Origin: Lingula anatina
Taxonomy: Eukaryota > Animalia > Brachiopoda
DNA length: 64,000 nt
NCBI GenBank assembly: GCA_051362555.1
Contig: CM120640.1
Span: 53,732,788 to 53,796,787 of the forward strand
Direction: 5' to 3'
Shown in pieces: positions 2,751-45,806 of the stretch. The notes beneath the pieces were generated by a model that worked only from the letters and a program-made list of their open reading frames with translations, did not search any database and was not told where the DNA came from. The translations under genes and the position numbers were made by a program. Every line of letters starts with the position of its first letter. Positions within the stretch are counted from its first letter, which is position 1.

Positions 2751-4202
2751 TATTTAAATTGATACATAACAAATATAGGCCTATTAATGAGTGTCTGCAC
2801 TTTTCATGAACTTATGAATTAATTTTAAGAAATAACTTAACATATTCTCGTTTTCGTTCGGAAGATAAAGTGAGTAGGCCTACGTTTATTGATTTACCGG
2901 CTCTATAATATTATTTTACACAAATGTAACTGCAGATGGGTAATATAGTGCTGAGCACTATAAAATTTCAACAAACACACACGTTCCTTGAGCAACATAT
3001 TGCAACATGAAGCGAAGCAGTAATTCTTTTTTGTATCTCTTCGTCCTTAGGCCTACAGTATGACATAAACATATCTGATGTGCTAAACAAAAGACGAAAT
3101 ATTCAGTTTCATGCAAAAAGACACAGCGTGTTTACAAACGAAGCCAAGAGTTTTGTTATGGCTAAGATGTACATGTAAGACTCACTCACAACAGATAAAT
3201 CTCCGAAATGTGTGTGGACATCAAAGATGATTTTATTGCACGCTTCGATTTATCCTGCGTATGCTGCAAGGCTCTAACCCAGGTACATATATATATATGT
3301 TTGAAGCATATGACTTTGTTTACACGACTGCAATCTTGATATACTATAGTATACATGAGCAAAGCAAGTTCAAACAAAATAGCGTTCCGCTGATCATAAT
3401 TATTATATTGAAAACGCTCTTGTACAGTTTGTCCTTCACAGAAACATTCCACTTTATCGCGGTCTTCCTGAACACTGTCACCACACAAAAGCGTGCATCA
3501 ACTTTACAATAAGTGTAAATTTACAGTTTATGATCGTTTCTTAAATGAATGAACCATTATATATGTATCCCTAGTTTTATAGGTATGTACATTTTTGTAA
3601 CTAACAATTTTTTACATGATTTTTACATAATCGAAGATAATTAATATTCTAACCGCCCCTCTGTAACTTCCAAGGGCTATATACACATGTATATGGAATA
3701 TAATTCTAATCCTCATCCAGTTATACCACATCAAGCAGCATCCTACGCATGCAGAGTTATGAGGACCGAAAATTAACAATACTAAACAACAAATATATAG
3801 CAGATTAACAAAAATTAAAAATAAATAAATAAACACAATCTATACAGCCTTTTTAATAGTCCATTCAAACTCTCGTCCATCGAAGCAAACCCTTGAATAT
3901 CGTTTTGTAAGTAAATTACAATACTTTGCGCGAATGTAAAATATCAAAATAATTTACGTATTCACATTTTATAATCAAATCATGAAGACCTCTGCCGCAA
4001 AAGTTTTTTAATTAACATGTTTGCTTGATGTTCATTTTTGTGGTCAGCTGTGAGAGTATTTAATACTGTGCGTGCGTTCGTGTGTCTGTATGTTTCTGTT
4101 TAAAAGTAATTAAGAGATAAAAACAAAGGGGTCGCTTGTACCAGGATATATATATATATATATTATGTTGCAGACGTTCGGCAGAACTTCTAAGCCATGA
4201 TA

Positions 4203-7200
4203 TTACATTAATCCAGTACGACGCAAGTTGATATCTACCAGAATCTGCAACACATTTTCAATGATTGTTTTCATCAAATCAACATTTATCGCACACGAAA
4301 CGTGCGTATAGAGGCTTTTTCCAGGTGGGGCACGTCTGTAAAATTCGTCCTTAATAAACCCCAGCGCGTCATCCGGCGTGTTGTGGCCTGCAATGATAGA
4401 ACCAAATGATTTCTACAAATGCCTTGTTTCCAGACTACAAAGATGAATTGAAGGTAAAAATAGATTACGTGCAATAGAAACAATCCGAGATAAGCTAAAA
4501 CGAGACTCAGCACTGCGTGAGAAGGCATACGAAAATAATGAATGCGCCAGAATCAGCATGAGGTGGGGTTAATATTGGAATTATAGAAAAAAATCACCCA
4601 GAAAATTATCCAACTTTTATTCGTTGCTTATTTCTGGCCCTATTCTCCTCAAAATCCCACGGACTCTCGCTTCTTCTTTTATCTCGGGTTATTCTTTTTA
4701 ATCGGATAATTCAATATCAAAATAGGAACCTAGACGAGCAGTGTTATGGCTGATGCGAGAATTCACATTGTTTTGTGCTTTCCAAGTGTCAGAAACATCA
4801 AATGAACTATGAATTTCTATTATTAGCTGTGTCTCATACCTCTGAACTCCGGAAATGTTTCTGCCAAACGAAATCTCTTCATTTTCTCCATGAACAAATC
4901 GTGCTTGTTGAGAAATAACATAACATCTGTTTTCGTCAAGTACTGATTGTGTGTCATTTCCTGAAACGTCTGCAAACTGTCTCGAAGATTGTTCTGAAAA
5001 AAAATGAATATTTTTTTCCGCAAAGAAGAAAAGAACTTAAATGCTAGTATTAAAATGGTGTAGATTCACTTTTTAAATGTTAAAATAAGGAAAAACTGTG
5101 ATGTATGTTTCAGGACAAACAAAAGGGAAGCATTTATTATGCCAACGTTTTTCTTAATTAAGCCTCCGTCACACTTATTCGGTATTTTAAAAGGATTCAA
5201 GCAATTATGCCTAAAATGTCACTTACATTAATAGAATAGTACAAAATACTTTTTAGAGCGGAGCACATGCATACACATTTAAAAAAACATTAGATACGAA
5301 GTTAACAAAGTTAATTATTTTTGTCAAAGTTATCGTGATGATACATAGACGTCAATGTTTAGTGCCTTTTTATCTGTTTAACTTCGGCTTGTTGCCTTGG
5401 TCGATGATTTTATGAAAAATAACGTTCTTTACACGGGCGTGAAAATAGACTGCGTGACGTGTATGTTAACGTGATACTAACGCGGCAAGACAATGTTGCC
5501 AGCGCTGTCGACAGTTGGTTAGATAAAATGAATGCCGCGATGTACTTTGTAACCAAACAAAATAATGATTAACACAGAGTAAACCAGAAATTGTTAGAAT
5601 AAACGCAATTCAAACTTTCGCACAGTCTCAACAACCACAATGTTTGCCAAACGAGATTACATTAAGGAAACCACATCATTAACTTTTCATATTCTGCCAT
5701 TAATTATCCTACCATAAAGTTACATGTATAAAACATTATTTATTTACCATAGTGCTGTCCTCTTCTAACATTTCATTGAAACCACTGAGCGACACGAAAA
5801 AGATGACAGCCGTGACGCCCTCGAAAAAATGGATCCATTTATTCCTTTGACTCTTCTGGCCAGCTACATCTATCACCCTGAAATGAGAGGCACAGATCAC
5901 AGAATCAAACAGCTTCCTGTAGGTCACAGGACAATTTCACAATTCTCAGCAATGTACCAACGTATAAGCAAAAACAAGTACCGATTTTTTATTTATCGTG
6001 AATAAATTTAAAACTCTCAGTTATGTTAATCATTTTCTGCAGGACCCATTGCTCTATTCCCAGATCTGTGTTCCTCATTTTTCTAAATTAAACACGAACC
6101 TTTTCCGAAGAAACGGTAATTAATAAGATGCCAAACGGTTTGAAGGTGTTGGAGGAGTTTTTATATATTTATTTATTATATTTTGTAGCAACGGCATAAG
6201 GAAACGAATTATTTATAATACTGATGGTTCAGTCTAATATTTAATGTCCATTGGAGTAGAAATCATATTTTGGGGTGATGAGTGATTAATCAATTGCAAT
6301 AATCAGAAAGGGTTAATGGCATGTGTGAGTGTCTCTGGTAAAACAACTATAGCCACTTAACATACGAAAATATCAAGGAAACCAGACAATACATCACAAC
6401 TTGGCTGTTGAAATTATCCTCAAGGAATCTCCACATATCACGTCTTAGTATAAATTTGATTACTGGCTACTGAGAAAGATATAGCTTTGCATTTCCTCTC
6501 CGAGTGAAAGTGTTTTGTTTTGATAGATAAAAAGCTGCGTGGTCTCTGGTGAACCAATACTCGGTGATTCTCCGTCACGGTTTGTCCGCACTGTGGGAAA
6601 ACTAGCAGTGATTAGGGCCGGTTGAAAAATCGATAATGTTTTCTCGTGTTTGGAGATTACGTTTCCCTGGTTTCCTGTTAAGCATCTTTGTTTTTATTTG
6701 TATGAAAAGGGTATAAGTGAGACACCCGTTGTTTATTCTAGATCGTATCTAGATCAGCTGTTTGTAGGCAGCAACAGCAATGAGACAAGAAACCGATACA
6801 TATTGAATACATAAGCTTGTTCATTATTAAAAAAAAAACATTTCCCATAAATACGATCGTTTGGTGATAACATTAGGAACGAATTAATAAACCACTTTCC
6901 AAAATATAAGAAGTGATAGAAGTTAGAACAGTTTCGTCCAAAAAGATTTCCAGTAGTCTCCGTTGAGTAAATCGACGTTATCTTTCTAAGACCCACCAAA
7001 CAAACTTGTTTATTGGTTCCTAGCTTAATTGCAGTGGTACAGTGTACAAAAATGCACCATGTTTTAATATCAGGCTTCATTTTCTGAACAGAATAGAAAG
7101 GTACAATGGCTTACTACACGAATTTTGCCTAGCCAAACGTAACACGATAAACCACATCCCCGCTGTTTAATTTTTTTTCTTTTCAACTGGTTTTAGATTA

Positions 7201-10200
7201 CTGGGGCTGCAATGCTTCATAGGGGATATAAAGGAAGGGAAAGTATTGATTAAGTACCCATCTTGACGTGGTGTACGAAGTTGGTGCAATTCCAAACGAA
7301 TTCCTACTGGGGACTAAAAAGACCTACCTGTAGTTAAGGCTGTTGATTGTCAAACACATCTCTTGCACGCCGACAGTTGGCTTCCTCAGGAACAGGATAT
7401 CTTTGATTGTAGGCAGGTATGAGGGCGCGCAGATACGCTCAAAGTCGTTAAGGAAACTGAAAGAACGCAAGATGAACTGGGTCAGATTAAAAACACATTG
7501 TTCACAAACAGGTGCTAATCTTAATTGGTCGTTGCTTTATTTGAATGATAGTTGGCAGCGTCTGAAATTCAGTTTTTAAATATTGAAAAATATATCCGAA
7601 ATATTTATACGTATTCACATTTTCATATTTGTCAAAACGAAAAAAGTATTCTGACTCCAAACCTAGAATAGATTTATTCAGTGAAGCTGCTAAGATCCTT
7701 TTGTAATGTTCCTGTTCACAAAGACACACGAACCAACGCATTTTAAATCCCTTTACTGACAACTTTTAGTATGTATTTTTTGGTAAGTATGATGTATAAA
7801 TCTGTTTTGTCTGCTATAGCTCCGCGAGACAGAAAAAAATCTGCACGATCTTAACTTTTGTCTGCGGCAATAACATTCAGGTTAACAACGTAAAATATTT
7901 CCCGGGTTTCTAAACTTGCATATCAAATTTAAACGCATCCCAGCATATTAAACATTAGTATATATTTACATTAATAATACCTGTGATAGCATTGTAAAAT
8001 ACAAACTTTGCAATTGTTTCTTTAAAATAAAATGGACGTGTAATGTAAACTAACGTCAGTTGTAAGTAATTGATTCTCATTCCAGTGGTTTTTAAGACTC
8101 AGTGACGCAAAGAAACCTTTAAAACTGCGGCCAGTACCACATTTAATTCATTGCTCCCTTGTAACACTTTAACTGGGAATGAGGGCGTTGATTTACCTAC
8201 AAGCAATTTGCAGAAATCATCTGACATATTGGGTTTTTATGTTAATCCCTTGGAAAAACAACCTGGTTTCAACAGAGAACTCTTTGCAAATTCCTTTAAA
8301 TGAGATCCAGGGTCTTCATTCTTTTTCTCCAAAAACAAAATTTTCTTGTCGTTGACATTCAGCGATAGCGAAGGTAATACTCTCCTATCTTTATATAAAG
8401 GTCTAAAGTTGAAGTAAACATGTAATATCTTATAAACAAGTACAGGTATACGTTTAACACGAATACCTAATTGTCTAAAGAGGAAGATTACTTACTACTC
8501 TTCTGCCTCTGACAGCCGCAGAGGGTATCTGTTCCTTGTAGCGTAGCTCGCTTTCACTCCAGGGTCTTTCTGTAGCTTAATTACCTCTGACGGAAGATCT
8601 AGTAACAACTGGTCTCTGTTCTTTTTTGGGCTGGCATGGATTCCGTTTTCAAGGGCTAGGAGACGCTGGTAGCACATCTTTGGATAGAGTCTATTTAGTT
8701 CCTGTGCACTCGCCTAAACACATATCGTAATAAATTATAAATCTCAAAACAATTTCAAAGCAATCAAACACTATCCAGGATGTTCATACCTGATTACTGA
8801 GGAGAGTCATATCTTGTTCGTTTCACATTTTAACTAATAGACAGCTTTTTTACTGCCGAGTGCAACGGCAATTTGTGTTCTAACCCCCAAAACAACAGCG
8901 AAAAGGCCTACGCCATGGGTATACCCTTACTTTGCCTTCGTCTGATTTGATTTCTTCGCCAAGAACTTCCATGTTACTAATTATTCTGTGGAAAGCATCG
9001 ACAACATTTTGGAATACATGAGGCCTCCATAGCCGCCTTTCTTCATCAGGAAATTTGTCTCCATAATGCAGCCGCAATTGCTTCATGAAAGTGGTCTTTC
9101 CAGAGCCACCGCCACCTAAAAAGAGAAGGGTATTGATATCTTAAAGATTTAAAACAAAGTACTCTAGTTTTCAGAAATATAGTACGAAAATATTTTGGTG
9201 CTTTTTGACCCACCAAAAATACCCATTCTTAAACTTGTTACTGTTATTGAAAGGTGTCTTAGCTAGTGGTTATTGAATAGGAAGGAATTTCTTAGTAAAA
9301 GGCAAACGTATCATCAACTAAATTAGCTTACTAAAATTGGCCTTAAGCTGAAAAATGTGACATTTGTTTGGACAAAAGATTCAACAGTCCAGAGGGAAGG
9401 TCATCATTCAAGTAACTGCACGAAGCACGGTATGGCCGCACTGCGTTTTTTAAATGTGAACTTTAGCATATTAAAGAGACATTACGGAAACTAAACTTTT
9501 CTGTGTGTCAAATGAAAAGACTATTACAAAAAGCAAAATTTGTGAAATATACTCTTAGTTATATCGAACTGAGATTTTTGTGTATTTGTTTCTTTGCTTT
9601 TATTATTTTAGATATAGTGTCGGTATACTTAACAGTCAGAGAAAATACCATGTAGCAGCATTTTGTTAAATTTTACAGAATCAAACGAATACATTTCTTT
9701 TTGAGAAATAGGCATCTGTATCTGTACATAACACGCCACAGGTCTGTGGGACATGCGGACAGGAACTATGGTGGAGAAATATGCTAGTGCCTTTCACTGG
9801 GTCCACATATATGTATCTCGAGCTCGTCATGCAACCGCGTTGCGTGTGACAGCAATTATCTAAAAAAACACGTGGTACCAACTAGATAAGCAGAACATTC
9901 TAGCAGAGCATGTGCAACACGGATTATATTGCTTGCAAATGGAGTTGACTCAATAAAGTCGCAACCCTGTATACTGGCTGTATAAATTAAGGACCACAGT
10001 ATTGCACCCGAGCGCCTAATCTGATGATTCAAAGGAAGGCACTAATTAACATGCAGGATTATGTTGCACAAGACATGGTTCAATGAAATAGAAATAGATA
10101 AATATGTTTGACGGGTGTAATCTCTGAACAACTCTTATTGCTATGACAATTACGCGGCTTAAGTGGTGGATTGTTATACAATATTGACATTTTTCATAGA

Positions 10201-11654
10201 AGCGAAAGTGAAAAACACACAAAGTGATCATAATTGCTTGCATCAAACCAGCATCATTATGTGCTAAATAGCAAAACAGAGGTTTTGGATTTTGATGGAC
10301 TTGTCGACGCTTTTCATTATATGCTGGATGTTAACTAGAGCTGCACAAGTGATTTTAATTCCGCGAATCCCCATTATCATCAATATATCCAAAGCAACCT
10401 CGTGTCACATTAAAACAATTGCTCAATATTTCCATTGTACCCCTCCACTTTCATTATCGATTGATTGCATCAACATTCAGACATTCCGAGACGAGTTCCA
10501 TTAATCCTCAAATAGCCAAAATTAGAGAATCGATACCCAGGCTCTTTGCGAACACATTAAACAGCACGGCATATCTTCAACCGTTGGGTGTCAAAATTTG
10601 TGATTTATTTCACTTTTTCGAAGCAAGTTATTCACACATTTGACGATAGCAAACACACCGGAGTTCAATAATACTCCCAGTATACTATGTCTCTTGGCAC
10701 TATTTTCATTTACTATTCTCCTCTTGTTTTCGCCTCACAGACATCAATAGCTCTGCATGCTTACTTACATTTGAAGTAAATATATCGTGTAACTGGCGGA
10801 TCAATTGATATATAGTAAAGAAAAGTGGACGTAAAAATGATACAAAGAGAAAAAAATGAAAGTGGCTGAACTTATCAGACCTGCACGCTTAAATAACCTC
10901 TTGAAAACACGCGCGCGCGAGCGCTCTTGTTAAGAATGATGGAATATTTCGGTTATTAGACATATATAATGATTATTTCAAAGTTCACAGTGATAATTGT
11001 CACAAAACTTTCGATAAAGCTGGCTGTAGCAATGACCTACAAACAATTTTCTAATTACGACAGTTGGAAAAAATATCATCGATCAATGACAAAAGTTGGC
11101 TAGAGTTTGGTACATTGTATATTGCAGAATGGCAGACCACGTGTACACTTACGACCCAATCACTGGTGGTCGCGGTTTGAGGCCAATTTTGTTCCACACA
11201 TTTGAAAAGAGCATTGCCTCGTCTTAAAACCGGAGGGAGAGCTTGGTTATTTTGTGGATGCAGTGTTCTGGGCACAAACAAAAAGACATTGCTGTTCGCA
11301 TTGGAATCAATCAAGGAATTGTTTGTAAGACCATCCACCTTGTATCGTACAAAGCAACAATAATGTCATATTAACATTATGAAATAAGCTAACGGTATGA
11401 AAATATTTCGGCTTGTGTATAATAATTTTCATTTATGAAAAATAGCAGGTTGTACATGTAGGGTAATGCCTGACCTGGTACTTTCGCTTACTTCATTTCC
11501 TGCAGGTGTAAAATCATTATAACATACTGTACAAACCTAATATGAGCAACTGGATTTCCTTCTCTCGCTTTTCTCTTTCTTCATTTAGCTGGTGGTCTAT
11601 ACTCCTGCTGCGCGCTATGGCGCCTTTTCGACTCATCTGAGTTACGTCGTCGCT
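4203..11654 (-). CDS. Divergent heterotrimeric G-protein alpha subunit; exons 11654-11537, 9115-8931, 8713-8496, 7456-7328, 5877-5748, 4993-4840, 4387-4203 (372 aa without the unresolved N-terminal exon(s))
   Basis: All introns are GT-AG and phase-compatible. Motifs: [20 protein letters not shown] (G1), [11 protein letters not shown] (switch I), [30 protein letters not shown] (G3/switch II), LFLNKHDLF (G4), HVSCAIN (G5), C-terminus [10 protein letters not shown]. Exon sizes 185/129/130/154 match conserved Galpha exon sizes. Confidence 0.95.
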
Positions 11655-12198
11655 CTGGAAGATATGAAAAGACCTTAGAAAATATCGCAGCCAAAAGTGC
11701 ATGAACCTACCAATCGATCAATGATACCCAAATGCTACCTTGCCAAAAAGATTGTCCACTATCATCACCCTCCGTTTCAAATTGTTGACGATGGCGAAAA
11801 TGAAGATGACGAAGATGAGAAGATGGGAGGCACCGTCAGTAGTATGACAGTCAGGATGATAAACACGAGTGTTGTATTTAAAAGTAGCCATTTTAGTGGA
11901 AAGCAGGAGAAATAGCAGTGAACAGGAATATCGCAGTTGTAACTGGCATCTAGTTTTAAACATTGCATCATTAGTCCTATTTGCCCTTCTACACCGCAAT
12001 GAAAATTACAATCTCAAGTTGTTTATGGGACTTAAAAGTAGATTGGGGTGAGGTGAATGTGACATCCTTAAGGATATTGTCACCCTTCGCCCAAATCTCC
12101 TTATTTAGTATCTTACATACATTCTTTTGTGTAATAAATAAATCTTCAGTGTTCAATGACTAAATTAATCAACATTTACACATATGTCATCTTACGGG

Positions 12199-12206
12199 TG
12201 ACGTCA
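12199..12206. promoter_or_regulatory. Perfect CRE palindrome TGACGTCA upstream of the Galpha core exon 1
   Basis: Exact 8-mer about 0.55 kb upstream of the exon starting at 11654. Confidence 0.3.
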
Positions 12207-15200
12207 TGATTGTGATGTTGGGGTAAAAACTGAAAAATCGGTTTCTCAAATTTCTCTTTTATCTGTGCACCCAGGATCACCGTTCTAATGACACCATTTA
12301 GTACTCCAAACACTGGCAGCAATTTTTTTAAAGTCTTTGTGCTGATTTTATCGTTGATAAAGCAAAATAATGCCTATGTTTACTGAAAATATGTGATAAG
12401 GGACTCATAACTCCATAACAAAAATATGTTAACCAAAATGAGGCAGGGGATTGTAGCCTATACTCTCCTGGTCAACTCTGCCAATTTTCGTGCATGTGTG
12501 CGTGTGTGTGTGTGTGTGTGTGCACTGGCTAGACAATTTTGTTGGAGCTCAGAAAGTGCACCACCAAGGTTTGTGGACTTAGGAAGAAGGAGAATTTTGA
12601 TTTTCTATTGTACTTTATACTTATGATACATCAAATGCGAATTTTGTGGACGTTAAATCTCCAGTTGGTTAGATGAAATACATTTTGTCTGCATTTGATG
12701 TTTGGCAGTACATGTACGTGGACTGGAGCTATATGCTTAACCCCATCATGCTAATGGCCCATCATACAACATGTGATAGTGACTTACTGCCACAGTGCTC
12801 TGTCTGCAGATGTTTTTCTCTAATTAAAATACGCTATCAGCTAATTCACTGTTTGCGTGTTACTCCGAAGGGAAACGTAATACAGAAAGAACTACCAATT
12901 GGAAATATCTATTCAGAAACTCTGATGGAATTGAAAAGACAATACTAAGAATAAAGCATTGTCCGGTGTCTATAGTAATGTCGCCTGGAAATGAAAAAAA
13001 AAAATTGTGGGAAATGACCTCAGGATAATTTCATGAAAAAAGTCGATGATTATTACAACATACAGTATATCGACAAATTAATGAAAATTAAACACCATGC
13101 AAGAAAGGTTCGATTAGAAATACTTAAAAAAATGTCGATAATGTGAATAATGGAAAACTGAATGAAGAGATCGCTGCTTGTGTCATTTGAATAAAACCCT
13201 CGTAAAAAAACCTTAATATCCATTAAGTTATAATAACAAACAAGCAGATGCCAAATATATATAAAATTCTGCCACTTGGAATTGGAAAAAGTCCAACATT
13301 ATTCCATATGCGCGCTATAACATGATCATTTTCAATTGGTGATTGGTATCCGTCAATTAATTTATTTATGACGCCATCGATAAAAATCAGTTGTCAGTGT
13401 CCGTATGTCGTCTTTTAATTGCTAACAATAATAAACGCACGGGAGATTACTTTACAAATTGTCGCACTGATTCACAAAAGAACCAAAGCGGACGATATAT
13501 CGGTCTCCCATTTAGCTGCTCAGAGGTTTGGTTTTCAAATCTACAAGTTCAGTTCACTTTTTACTGGGTTCAAATGTTTCTGTTATTTCCTGGCAATAGT
13601 GCACTGAAACTTAAACGCTGTGATTGTCTTTTGTTTCCTAAATATTTATTTTGTATGGAAATAATACAAAGCTTAGTCAATCAAAATCTCATTAGCTATA
13701 GCACTTTGCATTGATCCGGAGTACGACGTAATATGACTCTGAGCCAAGCGCCTTTTCAATATTAGTTGAGAGTATATATTTATTTAAATATACCGAGTAT
13801 TTGTCAACATTTAAATACATAGGTGTTAATTTTAATCACATGGTGACAAAAGTCATATAATAATATATAGTCATATAATGTGTTTAAGTAGTGCAAAACA
13901 GTTGCTTCACGACATTTACCAATGAAATTGCTCACAAAGCAAGCACTTGTGAACTATAGTACAATTGATCTAACGAATATCATTGTGTCACTCTTAACAA
14001 ATAACCCTCAACCCTAAAATCTCCACCACTCATAAGGCTTGTCTGTCAGCACATGGTCATTTGACAGTAATTCTAGAGCCTCCCTCAATTTCCTACCCAC
14101 AGCCCCGGCCAGTCAATGGGGGATTTTACATGTTTTCAAACCCTCACAAAATCCAATGTGTTGCTTGATTAATTTTTCAGGCACCCACAAAGTAAACAAT
14201 ACATACTGGTCTGGATGATACTTTGGAGAAGTCGTCACTTAGTACCAGTTCACGCGATTTGATGAGATTATACCCAAAGTTCAAAAATAAATACAGTGTT
14301 TTCTCAAAACTTCAGGTCTTTTTTTCACAATATAAACAATAAACATGAACCTTATGAAAACCAATATGCTTCATCCCAGATCTACATGCATTACCAGTCT
14401 ACAAAAAAATTTTGAAACAAAAATCTTAAAATGTGGCCTCTAGCTCAGAACAAAAAATATGAGCACAAACAAGCAAAAATAAATAAAATTTAAAAAATAA
14501 TATATTTGCATTTTTTCGCAAGTAAAAATTTGCTTCCACTTGATAGAGCATGCTGGATACCAACTCTGATATAGCTCTGATAAAACTCTGATAACTGGTA
14601 TCACGGGCTGTCCTGAAGGTCTTCTGTGTTCCATTTCTGGTACAGATGCATTATCGCGTCTTTTATTATCCGTGATAACTAAGTCTAGAATAAACCAAGA
14701 TGCGCAGAGTACGGTGATACGCGTGTCATGAAATACAAGGTACTATTTTTACAACAAATTATGTAAGTAGAGGGATACATTGAGTAGATATTTGATGCTC
14801 ATTTTGTGGTTAAAATCGATAATGGTACAAAATAAACGAAGTTATGACTGTGGTATTGTTTCGCAGATAACGTTATTTGCAACGTTAAGGGAAATCCTTG
14901 TTTTGATTTGTCACTTATGCATTGCTATACGGTTTCTTGCATGGAAACTAGTCAACATAATGTTAAATAATTCAAATAAGTTGATAAAACTGAGCATCAA
15001 ATGGCATGAGTTATTTTTAATTAAAAAGAAAACGCACATCGGCATTCTAATTAACAAAAACTCGAGATTTATTTCATGCCTTTTCCAGTTAGAGTCGTTG
15101 TTTTGCTGTTTTCCAGCCTCAACCCGATTAACGGAAAGTCATAACGGATGTAGACCTATTGGATGTACATGTACTGGATGTATTGGAGCACCATGCTCTC

Positions 15201-20949: not shown

Positions 20950-22100
20950 AAAACGTTTAAGAAGCCACCGTGGTCAAAATGTTAAAATAAGGTAATTCAT
21001 GATTGGTTTGTCTGTTGTTCTATTGATTTTGCAAGTTGGCTTGTGGAAGTGGATGAAATCTAATACATCCTTGTCTGATTGAAATAACACTAATGGCGAT
21101 TGGACATAATATGACCTGTGGAAGAAAACGAACTTACCGGTTTTAGTTTGTCACCGTGGGATTTCTTCATTTTGCCTTTAACAGTTATTCACAAATATCC
21201 CAATAAACCACAACGTTACACAGTTTATATCTTATATCTGCAAGCTAGTGCATCGACACAAGCAAACGCTCCGAAAAATGAGTTAATCCACTTCCCGTTG
21301 CCTTACATTAAATGGACACGAGAAACAAAAAATATTTTCAGATACACTCCATAGTTCTTCATCACACGCAGCCGTCGGACTAGAAATTTAACTCTTGAAT
21401 TTGAACATCTGCCCAGTCTGCTTTAACCCAGAAAACGCTTGCATTAGAGTTAAGCTTCACGACCAGCTTATATTTTCAGTGAAGTGAACCCGTGGTGTTT
21501 ATATCTTCAATAATTCTTGTCACGAAGAGCTAATATCATTCTACACGGCTTGGTGGTCTTTTCCTGTATGCCCTCACACCAGACCCTGGATATGATGAAA
21601 GGTACTTCACAGGAAAAGCAGAATTGTATCTAATTTAAAGGTAGAACATCGTTTCAGCGTGCAGTGCCCGCATATACTGAACCCAGGCTTCACTTCTCTT
21701 TCAACTGCATGAATCCGTTCCTCCAGACAGTTAGCGCATTTAACAATATAATCATCAACCCCCATCGGAGGTTTAGAGCGATAAACCAATCAAATGCATG
21801 TTGCATACGTCTCCGCGTTGTCGTTATTTATTCCATCGGAGCTTTTCCTGCCTTCATCTATATGACTTTTGTCTTTATACGTGGATGAATGATTTATTGA
21901 ACCACCTGATTGTAATGAATAAATTATTCCATTATGACTCTTACAGAATGTTTTAATGGTGTGAAGCTCATATTAGAATTCGATCCATATGAGTATCTAT
22001 ACAGATTTGTTACTCGTTACGTTACCAAAAAAAGTCAGTTTTCAAAGAATGCTGGCTACAGCGGCAAACACTATGGATTAATACATCAGACCACGTTTAA
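20950..22100 (-). mobile_element. Degenerate LINE ORF2 (APE endonuclease) remnant
   Basis: Minus-strand translation TCI*LVYRSKPP...GFSICG...TFKLDTILLF*STFHHI and later TDKPIMN resemble the 'VYRPP', 'I.GDFN', 'L.Q.V.FPT...TLD.I' and 'DKPW' motifs of L2/CR1-group ORF2; interrupted by stops. Confidence 0.35.
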
Positions 22101-33468: not shown

Positions 33469-35367
33469 CTTTAAAATTAATTTGATATATTTATGAGAAC
33501 ATATGAGTTTGTCTAGAAAATAAAAACATCAAATTAAGAATGAGAATACAGTAAAATTCTATGTTGGACAATTCAAGGTTTGCACTATTATTTTATTCAT
33601 GTTTGATCCTGAACATTATTTACCCCTCATCTTTTTCATAATGAAAAACAAACAAAAGTTCTTGCGTGTCCTTTGTATGCATAACAAAACAAACAGAGAA
33701 ATACATGTATCCCCCAAGACCTGCAGTTTAAAAAACATTGTGTTAAGTTTGAACTATGCAAATTTTCCCCTATACGGGTAAATATATTGATGTGGCTTTT
33801 GTAAAATTGCTTACATTGCAGCTCTCTGAAAATCAATATGCCCTCAAGATTGGGGGCAAATAAGAATTCCGTTCGAAGTCAAAGCACTATATCGTAAAAG
33901 TATGTTAACTCGTTTTACTCATGATGTCGAAAACCTTTTTTCTCAAACAAGACAAACGACTTTGCAATTTATCAATATTGGTTATAATCATAGTATGTAT
34001 TTACCTTTTGCTTGCCAATTTTCTTCATGTTCTTCATACTATCTCCATAAACGTTCTAATCCTTTCACACAGACAAGTTTCTGCGCATTATCTGATAAAG
34101 GGAAGCCGTTGGAAGGTGCAAGTCCTATTACACTGCTGATTACCTAATTCTCTCCCAGAATTTACAGAAGTTCAAGAACTGAGGCATCGATAACGTGGTT
34201 AGCTGTCAGTAGATCAGGTCATTAAGAAACGGGTGAAATCAGCAACAACAAAATCTATCAACACTAACCGCTAAATCAACTGGCATGCCTTCTTTAAGTT
34301 GGTTTGAAAGCGTCCATGTATTTCTTGTCAGTAAGTTTATCCTTATCCCAGATGTCAATCTGCCGCTGTAAGAAACTTTCTATAATTGATCCGGGTTGAT
34401 TCGTACGGATAAATCTTTCAGAAATAAATCACCAGATTATGCCTTCATTACGTGCTGAGGGGTGTGATATAAAGGATGGGAAGCGTTTTAATGATAGAAA
34501 AACCAGCATAATTACGTTAATATCATTGGTCAGTGACGCACAAGAGCAAAATACATTAATGGGAATCACTCATATGTCACTACATGGTTTCAACGAATCT
34601 CAAAGGACTTGGTTAAAGCTGGGAGGTTTAATACGATCCGCAGCATTTGGCAGAAATTAGGCGGGTCAAACTTCGTATCTCGATATACAGCTTCTGTTTT
34701 CTCTGATCTACAGAGGTTTTTAAGATTAGCCTTCAGCCGCTTAAGTTGCCCTTCAGGACCCACGTCTGACTCAGATTAATGTGAGTGGGAATAGTGCGTT
34801 ATTACATCCATGTCAATAATGCACTTAAGAATTTGACAGACATAGAACTGGAATAGTGTCGTCTCCCTTCACTCGAGAACGATGTGAATATGCCTGCTTC
34901 TTAAAACCTTAGCCTACAACTGAGAAATAATATGAAAAGGTACTTCTCAGCGAAGAAAACGACAAGCAATTATTAAATAGCAGGCGTGCATGTATACTTG
35001 TACATTTTTTTCATTCGGTGATAAATTTGATTTCGTTGAAATGAAGAATCATTTCAAAAGATTTATAAAATTACTTGGGATTTATTTTATTTATTTTTTT
35101 TTTGGTCTACCACTTGAACCAGCCGGTTGTTTTGAAGAGTTCTACTCTGCAGTTAACATTTTTCGCACGGCGGGTATCCTAAAGTGAATAATCCTTCGAA
35201 ACTATTTCGGGGTTCATTTACTTTATCAGACCAAACAGTATTGGACGGGGATTTGGGAAGTCTTTCTGTTCAATGGCTATTTCCCCAGTGTTTGAAGGAT
35301 CACGGATTTTGGAAATGGAGGAGGAGGGCGAGGACCTTTAACAAAAGAAACGTTTTATTCGTCTACT

Positions 35368-40074: not shown

Positions 40075-43000
40075 ATGGAGTATATGCGGTCGAGCAGTGG
40101 TAAGTTCTGTTGTTGTTAGACATGGTAAGTTTGGGAATGTACATGTATACTTCTTTTCTGGTGACTGTTGTCGATCTTTTGCATCAACCGACCAAATTGT
40201 CATTTTTCTGTCACCTGTAGAAGAGTAGTTTGCACATTTGAGAACACTGTGTCATGTTTATGGTTCACTGTTCAAGTGTTGGTCAATATGGCAATTGGGC
40301 ATTGCATGGTATATTTCCTTGGTTAGTTCACGTCACTTTTGGACATTAGATTTCCAAGTGATTTCACTCATATGCCAGCATTGGTAAGTAAGCTTGTAGA
40401 CAAATCAAGCCCTTTATATTATTTTATGACTTATGCTTACTATCTGAATGAGCTAAGCATTTCATAGGCAGATGGTACTCTTTATATCCAAAGGTAGCTG
40501 AGTGGAACCCAACAAAAAAGGTGACAGTAAGCAGGAAACTGGGAACTTTATGTATATGAACCTTTGCTGCTATTAGTGAGTCCTACCTAATAAGACAATC
40601 AGCGGGAAAGGTTTATGCAAAGACACTTAGACCTATCGGTATTTCAAATATGATTTTTTTTATCAAAAAGTCAACAGTCATGGCCTACTCACTAATACCA
40701 GCTGATAAGGGTCTAAAAAATCAGCTTAGCCAACAGTTAGATTATTATTTTTTTTTTTCTTGTTAGTATAGCAAAAAAATAAGATCTTTAAATTTTTTGC
40801 TTTAAAACATGTATTTTTGCATTTATTGTACTTCTTTGTATTGTGACAGTAGTTGTCTTTGATTCTTAAGTATCATATCATATTGGCTGTGTGTTAGTTC
40901 AGTATAATACTATGACTGATCAGGAAAGAGGTGTCAGATGCTTGGTAGTAATTAGAACAATTTTGGAAGGGAATTTACTGTTTACAGTTTACCAGGTTCT
41001 ACAAAAATAATAAGGATATCATAAAGCAGACTTAAACATTTTTCAACTGCATGTAAATTTACTTTAAGAAATTTTTTCTTTAGTGTTAAAAATAATTTTA
41101 TTACAAAAAGTGAGAGAGAAATGAGTTGTAAATAAAAATCAATTGATGGTAAAGGTCTTTATGATCAACATTTCTTTTCACACAGTATCACACAGCAGCT
41201 CAAACCCCTATATGGATGGAGTGCCCTTTAAGATCTCAGAAGCCACCAAACCTCCGAGTAAGGTAAGTCATGTTAGCTAGACTTTGAGGGTCACTTCTAA
41301 AGACGGTCACTTCTAAAGTGTCACTTAAAGTGCATAAACCTTGTTTTTTTTAACTTATCTGAGGACAAATGGTACTTTTTGGTAATTTGAAAAACGGGTG
41401 CCATGAATTAATGTGGCCCAAAATAATCTGATTTATCACTTCGTGACCTCATCACCTGTCAATGATGTGATGGTAGAATTTGAAAAGAAAATGCTTTAAA
41501 AACTGTGGATTAAGGACTTTTTGATTTTCCCAAATTGTTACAAACATACTGTGAATGTCAGGAAAGAGGGTCAGAAGTTGGTTTGTTGAAGAAAAATGCC
41601 GTTTATCTGAGAATTTTTTTTTAATATGAGTTTGCAGGAAAATCTTACACTGGGCACCTTTAACTACAGGCAACACGTTGAAAATTTTAAAAAATTTAGA
41701 ACTATAATAATGGACGATAATACTGTGAAAAGTCTGGGTAACTTCCACAGAGGGATGTGACGAATAAAGGACATCATTCTGTTTTAGGTTTCACTTCCTC
41801 TGAGTTTCCAAATGCCAGATCCCAGGAACATTTTATCAGAAATGGTAAGTTTCTTAATTACATTATTGAATAGCAAGTTGACTGAAGAATGCCTCAAGGA
41901 TAGGCACAGGCAACTTATTGTCTTGAATTGTCTTGAATCTGATTTATTGTTAACATCAATTTTGCCATTGTAAACAAATTAACATCAGACTGTTTACCAG
42001 TACCACCTGAAATGTAAATAGTGGTGAAAGTATTTGTTTGAGGACTTGGTTAGTTGGTTTTATCAAATACTATTATAGGTCATGTTTCAATTGTATTTAT
42101 ATTAATAACAAGTACAGCATACAAAATAGTTGTGATGCATGACCTAATTTGACGTATTTGTTTGATTTCAGTATGATTTTGAAGTAGAACAAGCCGTTCT
42201 GAATTATGCAGAGGCACAGAGAGAAGCTGAAGAAGAATTGGAAATTTCTAGAGAGGAACAAATTAACCAACTGGAGAATAATGAGTATAATATGCATACA
42301 ACAGAAAGAGGAGAATGCCCAAACAGTTCTGACCATGTGGGACAGCCAGTAGAAAATGCTCACTTGAAACAAAATGGACATATTGGACACCCAGAGAAAG
42401 TCAATCCATTACTGGCCAACATAAGTAGTGATATTCTCACTCCTGTTCCCATTGCCAGGGACAGAGTGAACACAGATGAAAACAGAGATGCACAGAATGC
42501 TAGAATAAACCTAGCAGACTTTGAAAATGAACAGGACCCTTTTGATAACTTAACCCTGCAGACAATCAATGATAGAGAGGAGTTAAAGAATTTGTTTTCT
42601 GTGTCCTCTCAGGAAAACGACAACAGGCTAGTAGCCAATGGGATTGGTCATAATTGTGAAGAAAATACAAACAATTCAAATATTCACAGTCAAAACATGG
42701 GCAAGGAAATTAATGGTGGTGAGAATGTAGAAGTTGACTCTGTTGGAGTAACATTACAAACTTCCATAGATAGAGTTTCCTACAAACCGCATGTAACGCA
42801 AAAACCAAATATAAACACTGGTGTCCTAAGAAATGGGGGACCCGGAACTCATAAGGAAGTTTTAGTACAGAAAAGAAGAAGTTTGCCAGAAAGTAAAATT
42901 CCCAAGCTGCCTCCAATTGGTGCTATGCCAGCTTTGGTTAGTTCTCCACTCCCTCCTATTGGAGCGGGAAATAAAGTCTCAGACTGTGACTCTACACTCA

Positions 43001-45806
43001 CTAATTCAAACCTAAAATTTGGAGAACCTTCTGTGCTTTCTTCTTGGGATGGCAGTCGGTCAACTCAGACCTCGTATGGACGGTACAGCAGACATGACAG
43101 TGCAATTCATGAAAGCTTAAACCTGGAAAAATCAAACATAACTGCTAGCTTTAGTGCTAGCTCAGGACCATCATTTCAGGATTCCCGGAGGAGCTCACGC
43201 AGTACCCCAGACATATCCCAGGTAGAGAGGGCTCCATTAAGTCCTTATCTTACAACAAAGTCTCCCCCATCACGGGTGTCTTCTGGCCAGGTGAGCCAGG
43301 AAGGTGTGGTCTTGGTTGACAGTGTGTCATGCAGTGCTAGTGTTAGTATGCTTTCTTGCTTAACACCTTCAGTAAATAATGCTGGTGGGTGGGTGGGGGG
43401 GGGGGGGGTGGGTGGGTGGGGGGGGGGTGCTGGGTGATTATTTTAGGTCAGACAGAAGAATGAAGCATGCACAGTTATATAACAGGGCCCCCAGTTCACA
43501 CTACATTTGAACAAAACAAGATGGCTGTCTGGATAGTTAAACTGACTGAGAGAGTTAGGGTACTGAGACCCCATTCGGATATCTACACAACACTACTTGG
43601 GTTGGTCCAACTCTGAAGGCGATTCTTGTAATTTGCAATCAGTGGAATCGGCTTAAAAGCCTCAAGCAGCCAGGCAGTAATTTACCCGAGCGCACACAAA
43701 ATGTTCAACCTTCAATTTGGCCAGCCTTCAATTTGGAAGTAACTCGCTCGCGCTGCCAGTAATTACGCTGCGGGGTATTCAGGGCACAGACCGTGATCAC
43801 AAGATACCGCCAATAGATTTTTAGATTTTTAGAAAATAGATTTTTCATGTGAACGAACCCTTATTTGTACAGTCATCAGAAACGTGATGAGCAGAAACGT
43901 ATTTTAAAACAAATAGATTTTTTGGTCATTTGATTAAAATGATAATTTTGGTGGGTAAGCTAGACTTTTGTAGACTTCTTTGTCAATTAAAGCCCTTAAC
44001 AGATGCATGTTAATCCTAGTTTTAATAAGTTCATGAATGCTGGTTGAATACTGATGTATTAGGACTACCCTTGAGGTCAAAATCACATTTCAGTTTCAAC
44101 CTGTAAAAGTGTTTGTAGAAGATTTGTATTTAGTTGAATTTTTAACCCATCATGTTTTGATGTTTTAGAATGTCACGATCTTTCAAACTTTGACTTTCAC
44201 CCTCCACTTTTTGATGGAGGAAAACACTTTGCAAGTGTACCTTAGATTTGCCCTTTTGATTTTTTTCTTTGTATATGCTGTCATATAATCTATAAAAATA
44301 ACATCACAATTTGCACGACTTTATTAAAAATTATAACTGCCTTTATAACAAAGTGATGCATGCTGTTGCTGATAATACAATTTGTAGAATTTGGAGCGCA
44401 GCAACTTAGTACAAATTCTAGTTTTATGAAGTTCACAGTAACTTGAAACTTGGTGCACTGTACACATTAGTCTTGTCTCAAGTAGTGAAAAGTATAGAAA
44501 TATAGTTACAAAGATATCCCTTTCCATCCTGATTTTAGTTCTTATTCATGAGACATTCATGTGTCTAAATGATTTACAAATTACAAACCTGAAAATGACA
44601 ACATGCAAGTGAGGGCAAAACATACTAAGGGTGGATTTTTTCCTGGTTACACTCAAAGATAACTCTTGTGAACACCAAGAACGAAACACAATCACAAAAT
44701 TCAGTTCAATTAAATATGAAATCAGTGACAAGAAAAAGATGTTGAAATTTTTAATATGTTAACATGACATGAAACAATTTAAGGGAAAAAAATTAACCAT
44801 TCTTCCTTCTATTATGCCATACAGGCTTGGAACAGGTACTCTCCTCTTCCCAGTACTCCTCAGACGTCCAGTCCGCCACAGGCAGGTCCTGCCAGGGCCA
44901 CTCCACCTCCTAGACCAGCACCAAGAGAAAGAAATCCATATAGTAAACTGTCCAATGAATCCCAGAGGCTGGTTGACAGTGTTGTTAGTATGGGGTTTCC
45001 TCAAGCCAGGGTGGCAAGAGCTGTGGAAAAACTGGGAATGGATGATAAACAGGTGAGTTGTCAGGATGGTATGTTGACAGTCCTTCAGCTGAATTCTCAC
45101 TTACATGGGATAATGGTGACAATTTTTAATAACTTAGATGACAAAAACTGTAAAATATTTGAGTGCCTTTTTTTAAATTGATGGGGAATATTTGCATGTT
45201 TTAGGTGGTGGATCACTTGTGTCATCTTGGCAGTCTACTGGAGAAGGGATACACAGCTGCTGATGCAGAAGACGCATTATTCTCATTTCCAGAACAGGAT
45301 ACAAAGGTATGAACTGGATCAAAAAATAACACTTCTTTTCATAAATAGTTTAAGTAAAATATAATCTCATCTAAGTCTAATAATCAGACAGTGAAGAATA
45401 ATTCACTATTTGCAGTAGGTCAGTTTTTTCCTGTACTTCTTATAACACTGAGAACTCCCAGCATCTCACTTCATTTTATCTCAACATCTGTCTGAATCAA
45501 CCATGTAGTTTCTCTCTACTCAGAAAATCCTTTTGTCATTCATTAAGTAGGAGGTCCTGCAACATAGCATTCATTGTAAACATCCAAATAATTACCAATA
45601 GTTGTTCATTTAACAAATTAAAGCTGCTGAGGTTATTATGAAAAATCTTATGTATCTTTTTATTATTTGTATTTTAGGTTAAAGACTATCTTGAAATGTT
45701 AACCAACTTTAAACAGATGGGATTTCACCCTGCAAAAGTCAAGGAAGCTCTAGTAAAACATAATTGTGACAAGGATAAAGCTTTGGATCAACTAACACAG
45801 TTGTAG
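40075..45806 (+). CDS. UBAP1: Ubiquitin-associated protein 1 (ESCRT-I subunit), ~578 aa; exons 40075-40099, 41186-41262, 41788-41844, 42172-43290, 44825-45052, 45205-45306, 45678-45806
   Basis: N-terminal UMA domain PYMDGVPFKISE...VSLPLSF...YDFEVEQ; conserved central motif DFENEQDPFDNLTLQTINDREELKNL; C-terminal SOUBA (MGFPQARVARAVEKLG...EKGY...FKQMGFHPAKVKEALVKHNCDKDKALDQL). All introns are GT-AG and in phase. Confidence 0.93.
43384..43434 (+). repeat. G-rich tract (potential G-quadruplex) near the 5' end of UBAP1 intron 4
   Basis: ggtgggtgggtggggggggggggggtgggtgggtgggggggggg, ~95 nt after the donor at 43291. Confidence 0.7.

What the first reader, a model, noticed from the sequence alone, without database searches (positions are those of the whole stretch)
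4203..11654. Galpha subunit with Ras-like, non-canonical nucleotide-binding motifs that fits no standard class by eye
Seen: G1 is GGGGSGKTT (canonical GAGESGKST; the Glu that pairs with the switch-I Arg is lost), G3 is DVAGQ (canonical DVGGQ; Ras has DTAGQ), G5 is SCAI (TCAT/TCAV) and switch I is RKPTVG. The catalytic Arg and Gln are retained. Known: the equivalent engineered G202A change in Galpha-i1 speeds intrinsic GTP hydrolysis, and G5 changes tend to speed GDP release. The C-terminus NLRRTGLM has the Gi-like -3 Gly but no pertussis-toxin Cys. Inference: a lineage-specific, possibly fast-cycling or self-activating Galpha.
Basis: partly seen in the sequence, partly recalled or inferred. 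Interest (0 to 1): 0.72.

Follow-up and report, generated by a model that had tools for sequence, protein, structure and literature searches.

The report
Brachiopod member of sixth Gα class
This is an intact, spliced lamp-shell gene for a G-protein switch of the little-studied sixth animal class (GαVI, the coral "Gc"), a class that keeps its GTP-cutting residues but lacks several residues that hold GDP in other classes, so it likely switches on more easily than textbook G proteins.

Summary
The gene is a Lingula anatina Gα (NCBI label "G(o)"), with seven core coding exons on the minus strand; RNA reads confirm all six introns. It is not lineage-specific. In trees with Gs, Gi/o, Gq, G12 and Gv it falls (100/100) in a separate clade with Acropora Gc, Nematostella, Lymnaea "Gα-a", amphioxus and hemichordate proteins; Gi/o membership is rejected (AU p 7e-41). 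A 2023 preprint named this clade GαVI. Beyond the papers I could read: hemichordate members; unicellular holozoan proteins as sister group (99/95); and a class-wide signature. E43 (0 of 54), R242 (0 of 56) and F336 (0 of 54) are lost and no member starts Met-Gly (0 of 51). DVAGQ is fixed in 45 of 45 bilaterian and 0 of 11 cnidarian members. Catalytic Arg (53 of 55) and Gln (56 of 56) are kept. Faster GDP release is a reasonable inference but untested, and coral Gc needed a light-activated opsin in vitro, which argues against self-activation. Verdict: new member of a named but almost uncharacterised class. The scan's notes held nothing on it.

The parts
34005..34037 (-). Alternative first coding exon (MKNMKKIGKQK; NCBI isoforms X2/X3), basic, no Gly2 or Cys
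   Evidence: GT donor follows; outside the stretch on which reads were laid
21138..21170 (-). Alternative first coding exon (MKKSHGDKLKP; isoform X1), no Gly2 or Cys
   Evidence: RNA loose ends at 11655 in two runs (13 and 9 reads) match it
11537..11654 (-). Core exon 1 (118 nt): alphaN helix, beta1; holds an in-frame Met used by isoform X5
8931..9115 (-). Core exon 2 (185 nt): P-loop GGGGSGKTT, alpha1, alphaA; no internal intron
8496..8713 (-). Core exon 3 (218 nt): helical domain with an insertion of about 20 residues, low model confidence at residues 136-144
7328..7456 (-). Core exon 4 (129 nt): alphaE-alphaF, switch I RKPTVG with catalytic Arg209
5748..5877 (-). Core exon 5 (130 nt): switch II DVAGQ with catalytic Gln235, switch III
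4840..4993 (-). Core exon 6 (154 nt): alpha3 (Asn273 for Gi1 R242, Asp276 for E245), NKHD
4203..4387 (-). Core exon 7 (185 nt to stop): SCAI loop, alpha5 (Val358, Met361, Ile365 for Gi1 T329, V332, F336), C-terminus NLRRTGLM

Best explanation
The gene encodes the Lingula member of the GalphaVI class (coral Gc, snail Galpha-a), which likely works as a receptor-triggered GTP switch with a loosened GDP pocket, so it is predicted to release GDP faster than Gi while still hydrolysing GTP. Shown here: intact spliced gene, class membership, a two-domain Galpha fold in the predicted model, retention of R178, Q204, T181, G203, R208 and NKxD equivalents, class-wide loss of E43, R176, E207, R242 and F336, and no N-terminal Met-Gly. 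Shown by others for the coral orthologue only: light-activated acropsin 1 drives GTPgammaS loading in vitro. Inferred: weaker GDP retention from loss of the E43-R178 latch and the alpha5 Phe relay (plus T329 in spiralians); intrinsic turn-off kept, possibly tuned by the fixed bilaterian G202A with K180P; reduced RGS sensitivity (T182 kept in 3 of 55); membrane attachment through a basic N-terminus and Gbetagamma instead of lipid; an effector unlike those of the five standard classes.
For: Membership: careful IQ-TREE clade with A. palmata 'alpha c G protein' (P0294, named), Nematostella, Lymnaea 'G protein alpha-a', Branchiostoma and hemichordates, 100/99 (59 rows) and 100/100 with Gs and G12 added (51 rows); internal branching follows cnidarians, deuterostomes, spiralians. 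Identity 47% to Gc and Galpha-a against 36% to a mollusc Gi and 34% to a Gq. AU rejects query+Gi, p 7.2e-41. Residue counts in a 257-row alignment, family against 197 other Galpha: E43 0/54 against E or D 169/197; R242 0/56 against 177/197; F336 0/54 against 149/195; R176 0/55 against 119/197; T329 2/39 spiralian against 154/196; G202A 45/45 bilaterian, 0/11 cnidarian, 8/197 other. Only 2 of 197 other rows lack E/D43, R242 and F336 together. E43-R178 forms a 'seatbelt' that may hinder GDP release (PMC12711574). F336 mutation raises spontaneous GDP release in Gi1 (review PMC5207459). Light plus acropsin 1 stabilised Gc (PMC3515558). Model pLDDT 88, pTM 0.82, best matches Gi and Gq structures. 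Met-Gly start 0/51 against 117/183.
Against: No kinetic data exist for any member in the papers I could read. Effects of single mutations in mammalian Gi1 need not carry over: the class fixed other changes (V332M 54/54, E245D 56/56) that may compensate, and F336 is replaced by other hydrophobic residues. A P-loop mutant long assumed to be activating (G42R) had normal exchange and hydrolysis (PMC3285607), a direct warning against reading kinetics from motifs. Coral Gc, which also lacks E43, R242 and F336, gave no stable product in the dark. The 197 background rows hold no Gs or G12 and many protist and fungal proteins. One run shows a one-base insertion at 8621 in 4 of 16 reads, in a run of T; the other covering run shows 0 of 19.
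Confidence: 0.55

Rival explanations
1. GalphaVI member with ordinary kinetics: the substitutions compensate one another and the class differs only in receptor and effector choice.
For: Coral Gc behaved as a normal receptor-dependent Galpha in the trypsin-protection assay. All core nucleotide contacts (GK[ST]T, T181, D200, NKxD, A326) are kept. G42R precedent.
Against: Several residues tied to GDP retention are lost together in every member and in only 2 of 197 other rows. Spiralian members add loss of D150 (0/38) and T329 (2/39). The coral assay was a single 5-minute end point with 100 uM GDP against 10 uM GTPgammaS, so it does not measure rates.
Confidence: 0.25
2. In bilaterians the class became self-activating: GDP release outruns hydrolysis without a receptor, as in plant GPA1 (recalled), and turn-off or Gbetagamma binding is the regulated step.
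For: Bilaterian members carry extra changes absent in cnidarians: G202A 45/45, K180P 42/44, G42 kept in 2/45, D150 0/42. Two gastropod models have Cys or His for the catalytic Arg (Aplysia P0042, Pomacea P0014), which suggests relaxed need for hydrolysis there.
Against: Coral orthologue needs a receptor. The receptor-facing alpha5 helix is full length with a conserved N-L/hydrophobic tail. G202A is recalled to speed hydrolysis, which would oppose standing activation. Lingula keeps G42 and R178.
Confidence: 0.15
3. It is a divergent Go or Gi paralogue, as the NCBI label says, or a degenerating copy.
For: Best solved-structure sequence hits are Go and Gi (E 1e-69); automatic names say G(o).
Against: AU p 7.2e-41 against grouping with Gi/o/t/z. 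The Gi-type intron in the 185-nt exon is absent (Gi has eight and Gq seven coding exons, PMC5896119). 17 of 19 coding differences in RNA reads are synonymous. Orthologues are kept from corals to hemichordates.
Confidence: 0.03

Closest known systems
GalphaVI (bioRxiv 10.1101/2023.09.14.557824; passages read)
   Same: Same clade: the preprint defines it by the Nematostella gene, A. palmata Gc, 'multiple spiralian sequences' and Branchiostoma; this protein groups with all of these at 100/100.
   Different: The preprint found no other deuterostome and dates the class to the cnidarian-bilaterian ancestor; here Ptychodera and Glandiceps are members and unicellular holozoan proteins are the sister group. 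It says the Nematostella gene retains GXGESGKS; the Nematostella model retrieved here reads GSGNSGKST (a 316-aa model that may differ from theirs). It reports no motif degeneration. Its main text never mentions Lingula, Lymnaea or brachiopods; its Fig. S1 was not visible.
Acropora palmata Gc (AFZ78087.1; Mason et al. 2012, PMC3515558; parts 1-3 of 5 read)
   Same: 47% identical; no N-terminal Gly/Cys; lacks E43, R242, F336; has M332 and D245.
   Different: Gc keeps DVGGQ, TCAT, T329 and D150; Lingula has DVAGQ, SCAI, V and E at these places, a Pro at 180 and a longer helical domain.
Lymnaea stagnalis 'G protein alpha-a subunit' (database name; the 1995 paper by Knol et al. on a molluscan Galpha with atypical nucleotide-binding domains is recalled, not seen)
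   Same: 47% identical; DVAGQ, E43 loss, CAI loop, K180P, no lipidation motif.
   Different: P-loop GGPGAGKS (Pro at the G42 place) against GGGGSGKT; C-terminus KRSKNY against RRTGLM.
Mammalian Gi1/Go (PDB 6oik, 1gp2 and others)
   Same: Same fold (TM about 0.7) and catalytic Arg and Gln.
   Different: About 36% identity to Gi; separate clade; no myristoylation or palmitoylation motif, no pertussis-toxin Cys, GDP-latch residues lost.

Membership tests
Heterotrimeric Galpha (PF00503) | Ras-like domain with inserted helical domain and G1-G5 boxes | tested here: met
   Pfam 329.7 bits over 26-371; model and Foldseek
GalphaVI / Gc | Clade with Nematostella GalphaVI and A. palmata Gc, apart from the five standard classes | tested here: met
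   100/99, 100/100; anchors named
GalphaVI / Gc | No N-terminal myristoylation Gly or palmitoylation Cys (noted for Gc) | tested here: met
   All five isoforms; family Met-Gly 0/51, Cys in first 12 residues 3/51
GalphaVI / Gc | Activation by an opsin or other receptor (shown for Gc only) | not testable with these tools
   PMC3515558; nothing for Lingula
Gi/o (NCBI label) | Monophyly with Gi/o/t/z | tested here: not met
   AU p 7.2e-41
Gi/o (NCBI label) | Eight coding exons, Met-Gly-Cys start, Cys at -4 | tested here: not met
   Seven core exons with an unsplit 185-nt exon; no MGC, Thr at -4
Gq | Seven-exon structure and switch I Pro | tested here: met
   Seven core exons (Gq count, exact GNAQ exon sizes recalled); RKPT against Gq RVPT
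Gq | Monophyly with Gq | tested here: not met
   Gq is its own clade 100/98; Gq+G12+Gs 100/96 excludes the query. No AU test was run for this grouping.
G12, Gs, Gv | Monophyly with any of them | tested here: not met
   Each is a separate starred clade. Their rows are mostly unnamed sequences labelled by recalled motifs.
Self-activating Galpha (plant GPA1 type) | Spontaneous exchange faster than hydrolysis | not testable with these tools
   Needs purified protein; coral orthologue argues against

The most novel reading that the evidence does not exclude
GalphaVI is a sixth primordial Galpha class older than animals (sister proteins in Pigoraptor, Amoebidium, Syssomonas and a 'Clim_evm' record), lost in vertebrates and ecdysozoans. 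On the animal stem it shed its lipid anchors and GDP latches, and in bilaterians it fixed natural equivalents of the engineered G202A and K180P changes, giving a soluble, fast-exchanging and partly receptor-independent switch with its own unknown effector.
Probability: 0.15. Interest if true: 0.8.

Novelty: new member of a known kind. Interest (0 to 1): 0.47.

Why it matters
Textbooks list four or five animal Galpha classes. This gene belongs to a sixth, present in molluscs, annelids, brachiopods, nemerteans, corals, amphioxus and hemichordates, mislabelled Go, Gt, Gi, Gq or G12 in databases, with no known effector and no kinetics in the papers I could reach. The residue table turns a vague 'atypical' into specific tests: coral against bilaterian members is a natural experiment on the E43 latch, the alpha5 relay and G202A. 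Studies of opsin and neuropeptide signalling in spiralians may be missing a transducer that human-cell assays do not contain.

Tried and rejected
No whole genome was held, so paralogues and synteny in Lingula were not examined. No RNA holder was listed by index; runs came by species label. A first-pass search of the window for a Met-Gly/Cys first exon gave nine candidates, none matching the annotated isoforms. C. elegans GPA-5 fell near the clade in FastTree (support 0.74) but not in the careful tree: rejected as long-branch pull. The chytrid row (Entophlyctis) joins the holozoan sister group but on the longest branch (2.0); not claimed. The idea that the holozoan sisters are G12 was rejected for Pigoraptor plus Amoebidium (AU p 0.00024); Pigoraptor with Gv was only weakly rejected (p 0.041); Syssomonas and the 'Clim_evm' row were not AU-tested. 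The -3 Gly as a Gi-like sign was rejected (14/56). The ESM Atlas gave only generic Galpha clusters. Primary papers on Galpha-a (id recalled), G202A/K180P, F336 and the seatbelt were not held; the G202A effect and the T329A identity of PDB 3ffa are recalled. One search found nothing; 70 and 39 gave nothing useful. No complex was predicted, as no Gbeta or receptor partner was in hand. Earlier scan notes had nothing on this class.

Full report
Gene. The region is eukaryotic DNA of about 36% GC. Seven minus-strand exons of 118, 185, 218, 129, 130, 154 and 185 bases, all with AG acceptors and the six internal GT donors, give one open frame ending at 4203. One exon used as query retrieved a single protein of 23 candidates, 100% identical: Lingula anatina XP_013396545.1, named G(o) alpha, with five isoform sequences that differ only at the N-terminus. 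Their first coding exons lie at 21170 and 34037. Reads of four RNA runs were laid on 3000-14400: two runs show all six introns, one shows two and has all its first mates on the plus strand as expected for a minus-strand RNA, and one does not cover the gene. Of 19 differing coding letters 17 are synonymous and the other two share codon 148 in the helical insertion. The tissues are not known.

Family. The full protein found 69 relatives at E 1e-20 or better among 3219 candidates. The top block, 39-51% identical, comes from a nemertean, annelids, many molluscs (one named 'G protein alpha-a subunit', Lymnaea), the brachiopod Terebratalia, Branchiostoma, two hemichordates and stony corals. A profile of 46 of them separates full-length members (456-634 bits) from standard Galpha (370 or less; three truncated members score 321-417). 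Cluster look-up named the A. palmata 'alpha c G protein' and a Nematostella protein among them. Mason et al. 2012 (PMC3515558, parts 1-3 of 5 read) described Gc as a novel Galpha lacking the N-terminal Gly and Cys and stabilised by GTPgammaS only with light and acropsin 1. A 2023 preprint (10.1101/2023.09.14.557824, passages) named the clade GalphaVI, with anthozoan, spiralian and Branchiostoma members. A search for that name found only this preprint as relevant; searches found no kinetic study. The library lacks most subscription papers and the preprint's supplement was closed, so its tree may already hold Lingula or Lymnaea.

Trees. FastTree on 257 of 306 proteins (300-480 aa; four Lingula isoforms and near-duplicate coral cluster members left out) gave a 56-member clade at 0.999. 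IQ-TREE on 59 chosen rows gave 100/99. That set had no Gs or G12, so I fetched them from metagenome contigs by a motif pattern (114 loci) and used 5 Gs and 6 G12 frames, three of the G12 being C-terminal halves. With 51 rows the clade is 100/100 and each of Gi, Gq, G12, Gs and Gv is separate. Class labels of unnamed rows (all Gs and G12, Gv, Gz) rest on recalled motifs. Holding the query with Gi is rejected, p 7.2e-41. Four unicellular holozoan proteins (Pigoraptor, Amoebidium, Syssomonas, and a record named Clim_evm) plus one long chytrid branch form the sister group at 99/95; with three long rows removed it is 96 SH-aLRT in a quick tree. Placing two of them with G12 is rejected (p 0.00024), Pigoraptor with Gv weakly (p 0.041). 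These holozoan proteins keep R242 and E or D at 43, and partly share M332 and D245, as stem relatives would. They could also be a grade of old paralogues drawn together near the root; I put a pre-animal origin at about 0.55. Lokits et al. 2018 (PMC5896119, passages) place the five known classes in the holozoan ancestor and, in the passages seen, name no sixth.

Residues. Against Gi1 numbering (56 family rows, 197 others without Gs or G12; some rows are unnamed and grouped by the tree): E43 0/54, R176 0/55, E207 0/56, R242 0/56, F336 0/54; E245D 56/56, V332M 54/54; R178 53/55, Q204 56/56. Bilaterian only: G202A 45/45, K180P 42/44, D150 0/42, G42 2/45 (Lingula is one of the two that keep it). 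T329 is kept in 2/39 spiralian, 4/4 deuterostome and 11/11 cnidarian rows. No member starts Met-Gly (0/51 against 117/183). The model (46-row alignment, pLDDT 88) is a normal two-domain Galpha whose best matches are Gi and Gq structures.

Mechanism. The hydrolytic residues are intact, so it most likely cycles. E43-R178 is described as a seatbelt that may hinder GDP release (PMC12711574, two passages) and F336 mutation raises spontaneous release in Gi1 (review PMC5207459, passages); both are gone in the whole class, which points to looser GDP binding. Against over-reading: coral Gc shares these losses yet needed a receptor, though in a short end-point assay with excess GDP; and G42R, long assumed activating, cycles normally (PMC3285607, passages). 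That paper also notes that K180P uncouples hydrolysis from the conformational change, so the G202A effect (recalled, primary paper not held) cannot be read alone. My odds: receptor-gated with faster exchange 0.55, ordinary kinetics 0.25, self-activating 0.15. Membership in GalphaVI is about 0.97.

Verdict. PMC9884665, PMC9189025 and PMC4890853 were searched by term and added nothing.

Noticed in passing
P0042 (Aplysia californica) and P0014 (Pomacea canaliculata), switch I: These GalphaVI models carry Cys (YICWPT) and His (YVHWPT) at the catalytic Arg place, the same exchanges recalled as activating in human Gs (R201C/H). They may be naturally GTPase-slow, or model errors.
   Followed up: partly
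window 53416-52280 (-): Single-exon rhodopsin-family receptor frame of about 378 aa (Pfam 7TM_GPCR_Srw 1.5e-20, 7tm_1 1e-14), about 18 kb upstream of the farthest first exon and on the same strand. No evidence of a functional link.
   Followed up: no
window 42166-45178 (+): Long exon of 423 codons and a proline-rich exon with a weak UBA-like match (E 0.003); looks like a UBAP1-type gene (recalled resemblance).
   Followed up: no
window 62690-59158 (-): Exons of a gene with a CCCH zinc finger and cysteine-rich stretches.
   Followed up: no
window 12138-12201 and 12443-12530: RNA reads cover two short pieces between the first exons, with loose ends on their sides; in one run nearly all first mates point to a plus-strand RNA. 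No second copy in the window apart from a TG repeat. Either small exons of an antisense transcript or repeats transcribed elsewhere.
   Followed up: partly
P0141, P0143, P0147 (chytrid fungi), P0145: Proteins of 590-690 aa holding two Galpha units in tandem, with GSGDSGK P-loops and DVGGQQKYRKQW in three; could be real fusions or merged gene models. A single-unit relative (P0060) has DVAGQ and groups loosely with the GalphaVI sisters.
   Followed up: no
P0109, P0112 (Drosophila), P0106 (Scortum): Gq-like proteins that also carry DVAGQ, so G202A arose more than once.
   Followed up: partly
P0011 (Terebratalia transversa): Deposited as 'G protein subunit alpha 12a' but falls in GalphaVI, not G12.
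   Followed up: yes
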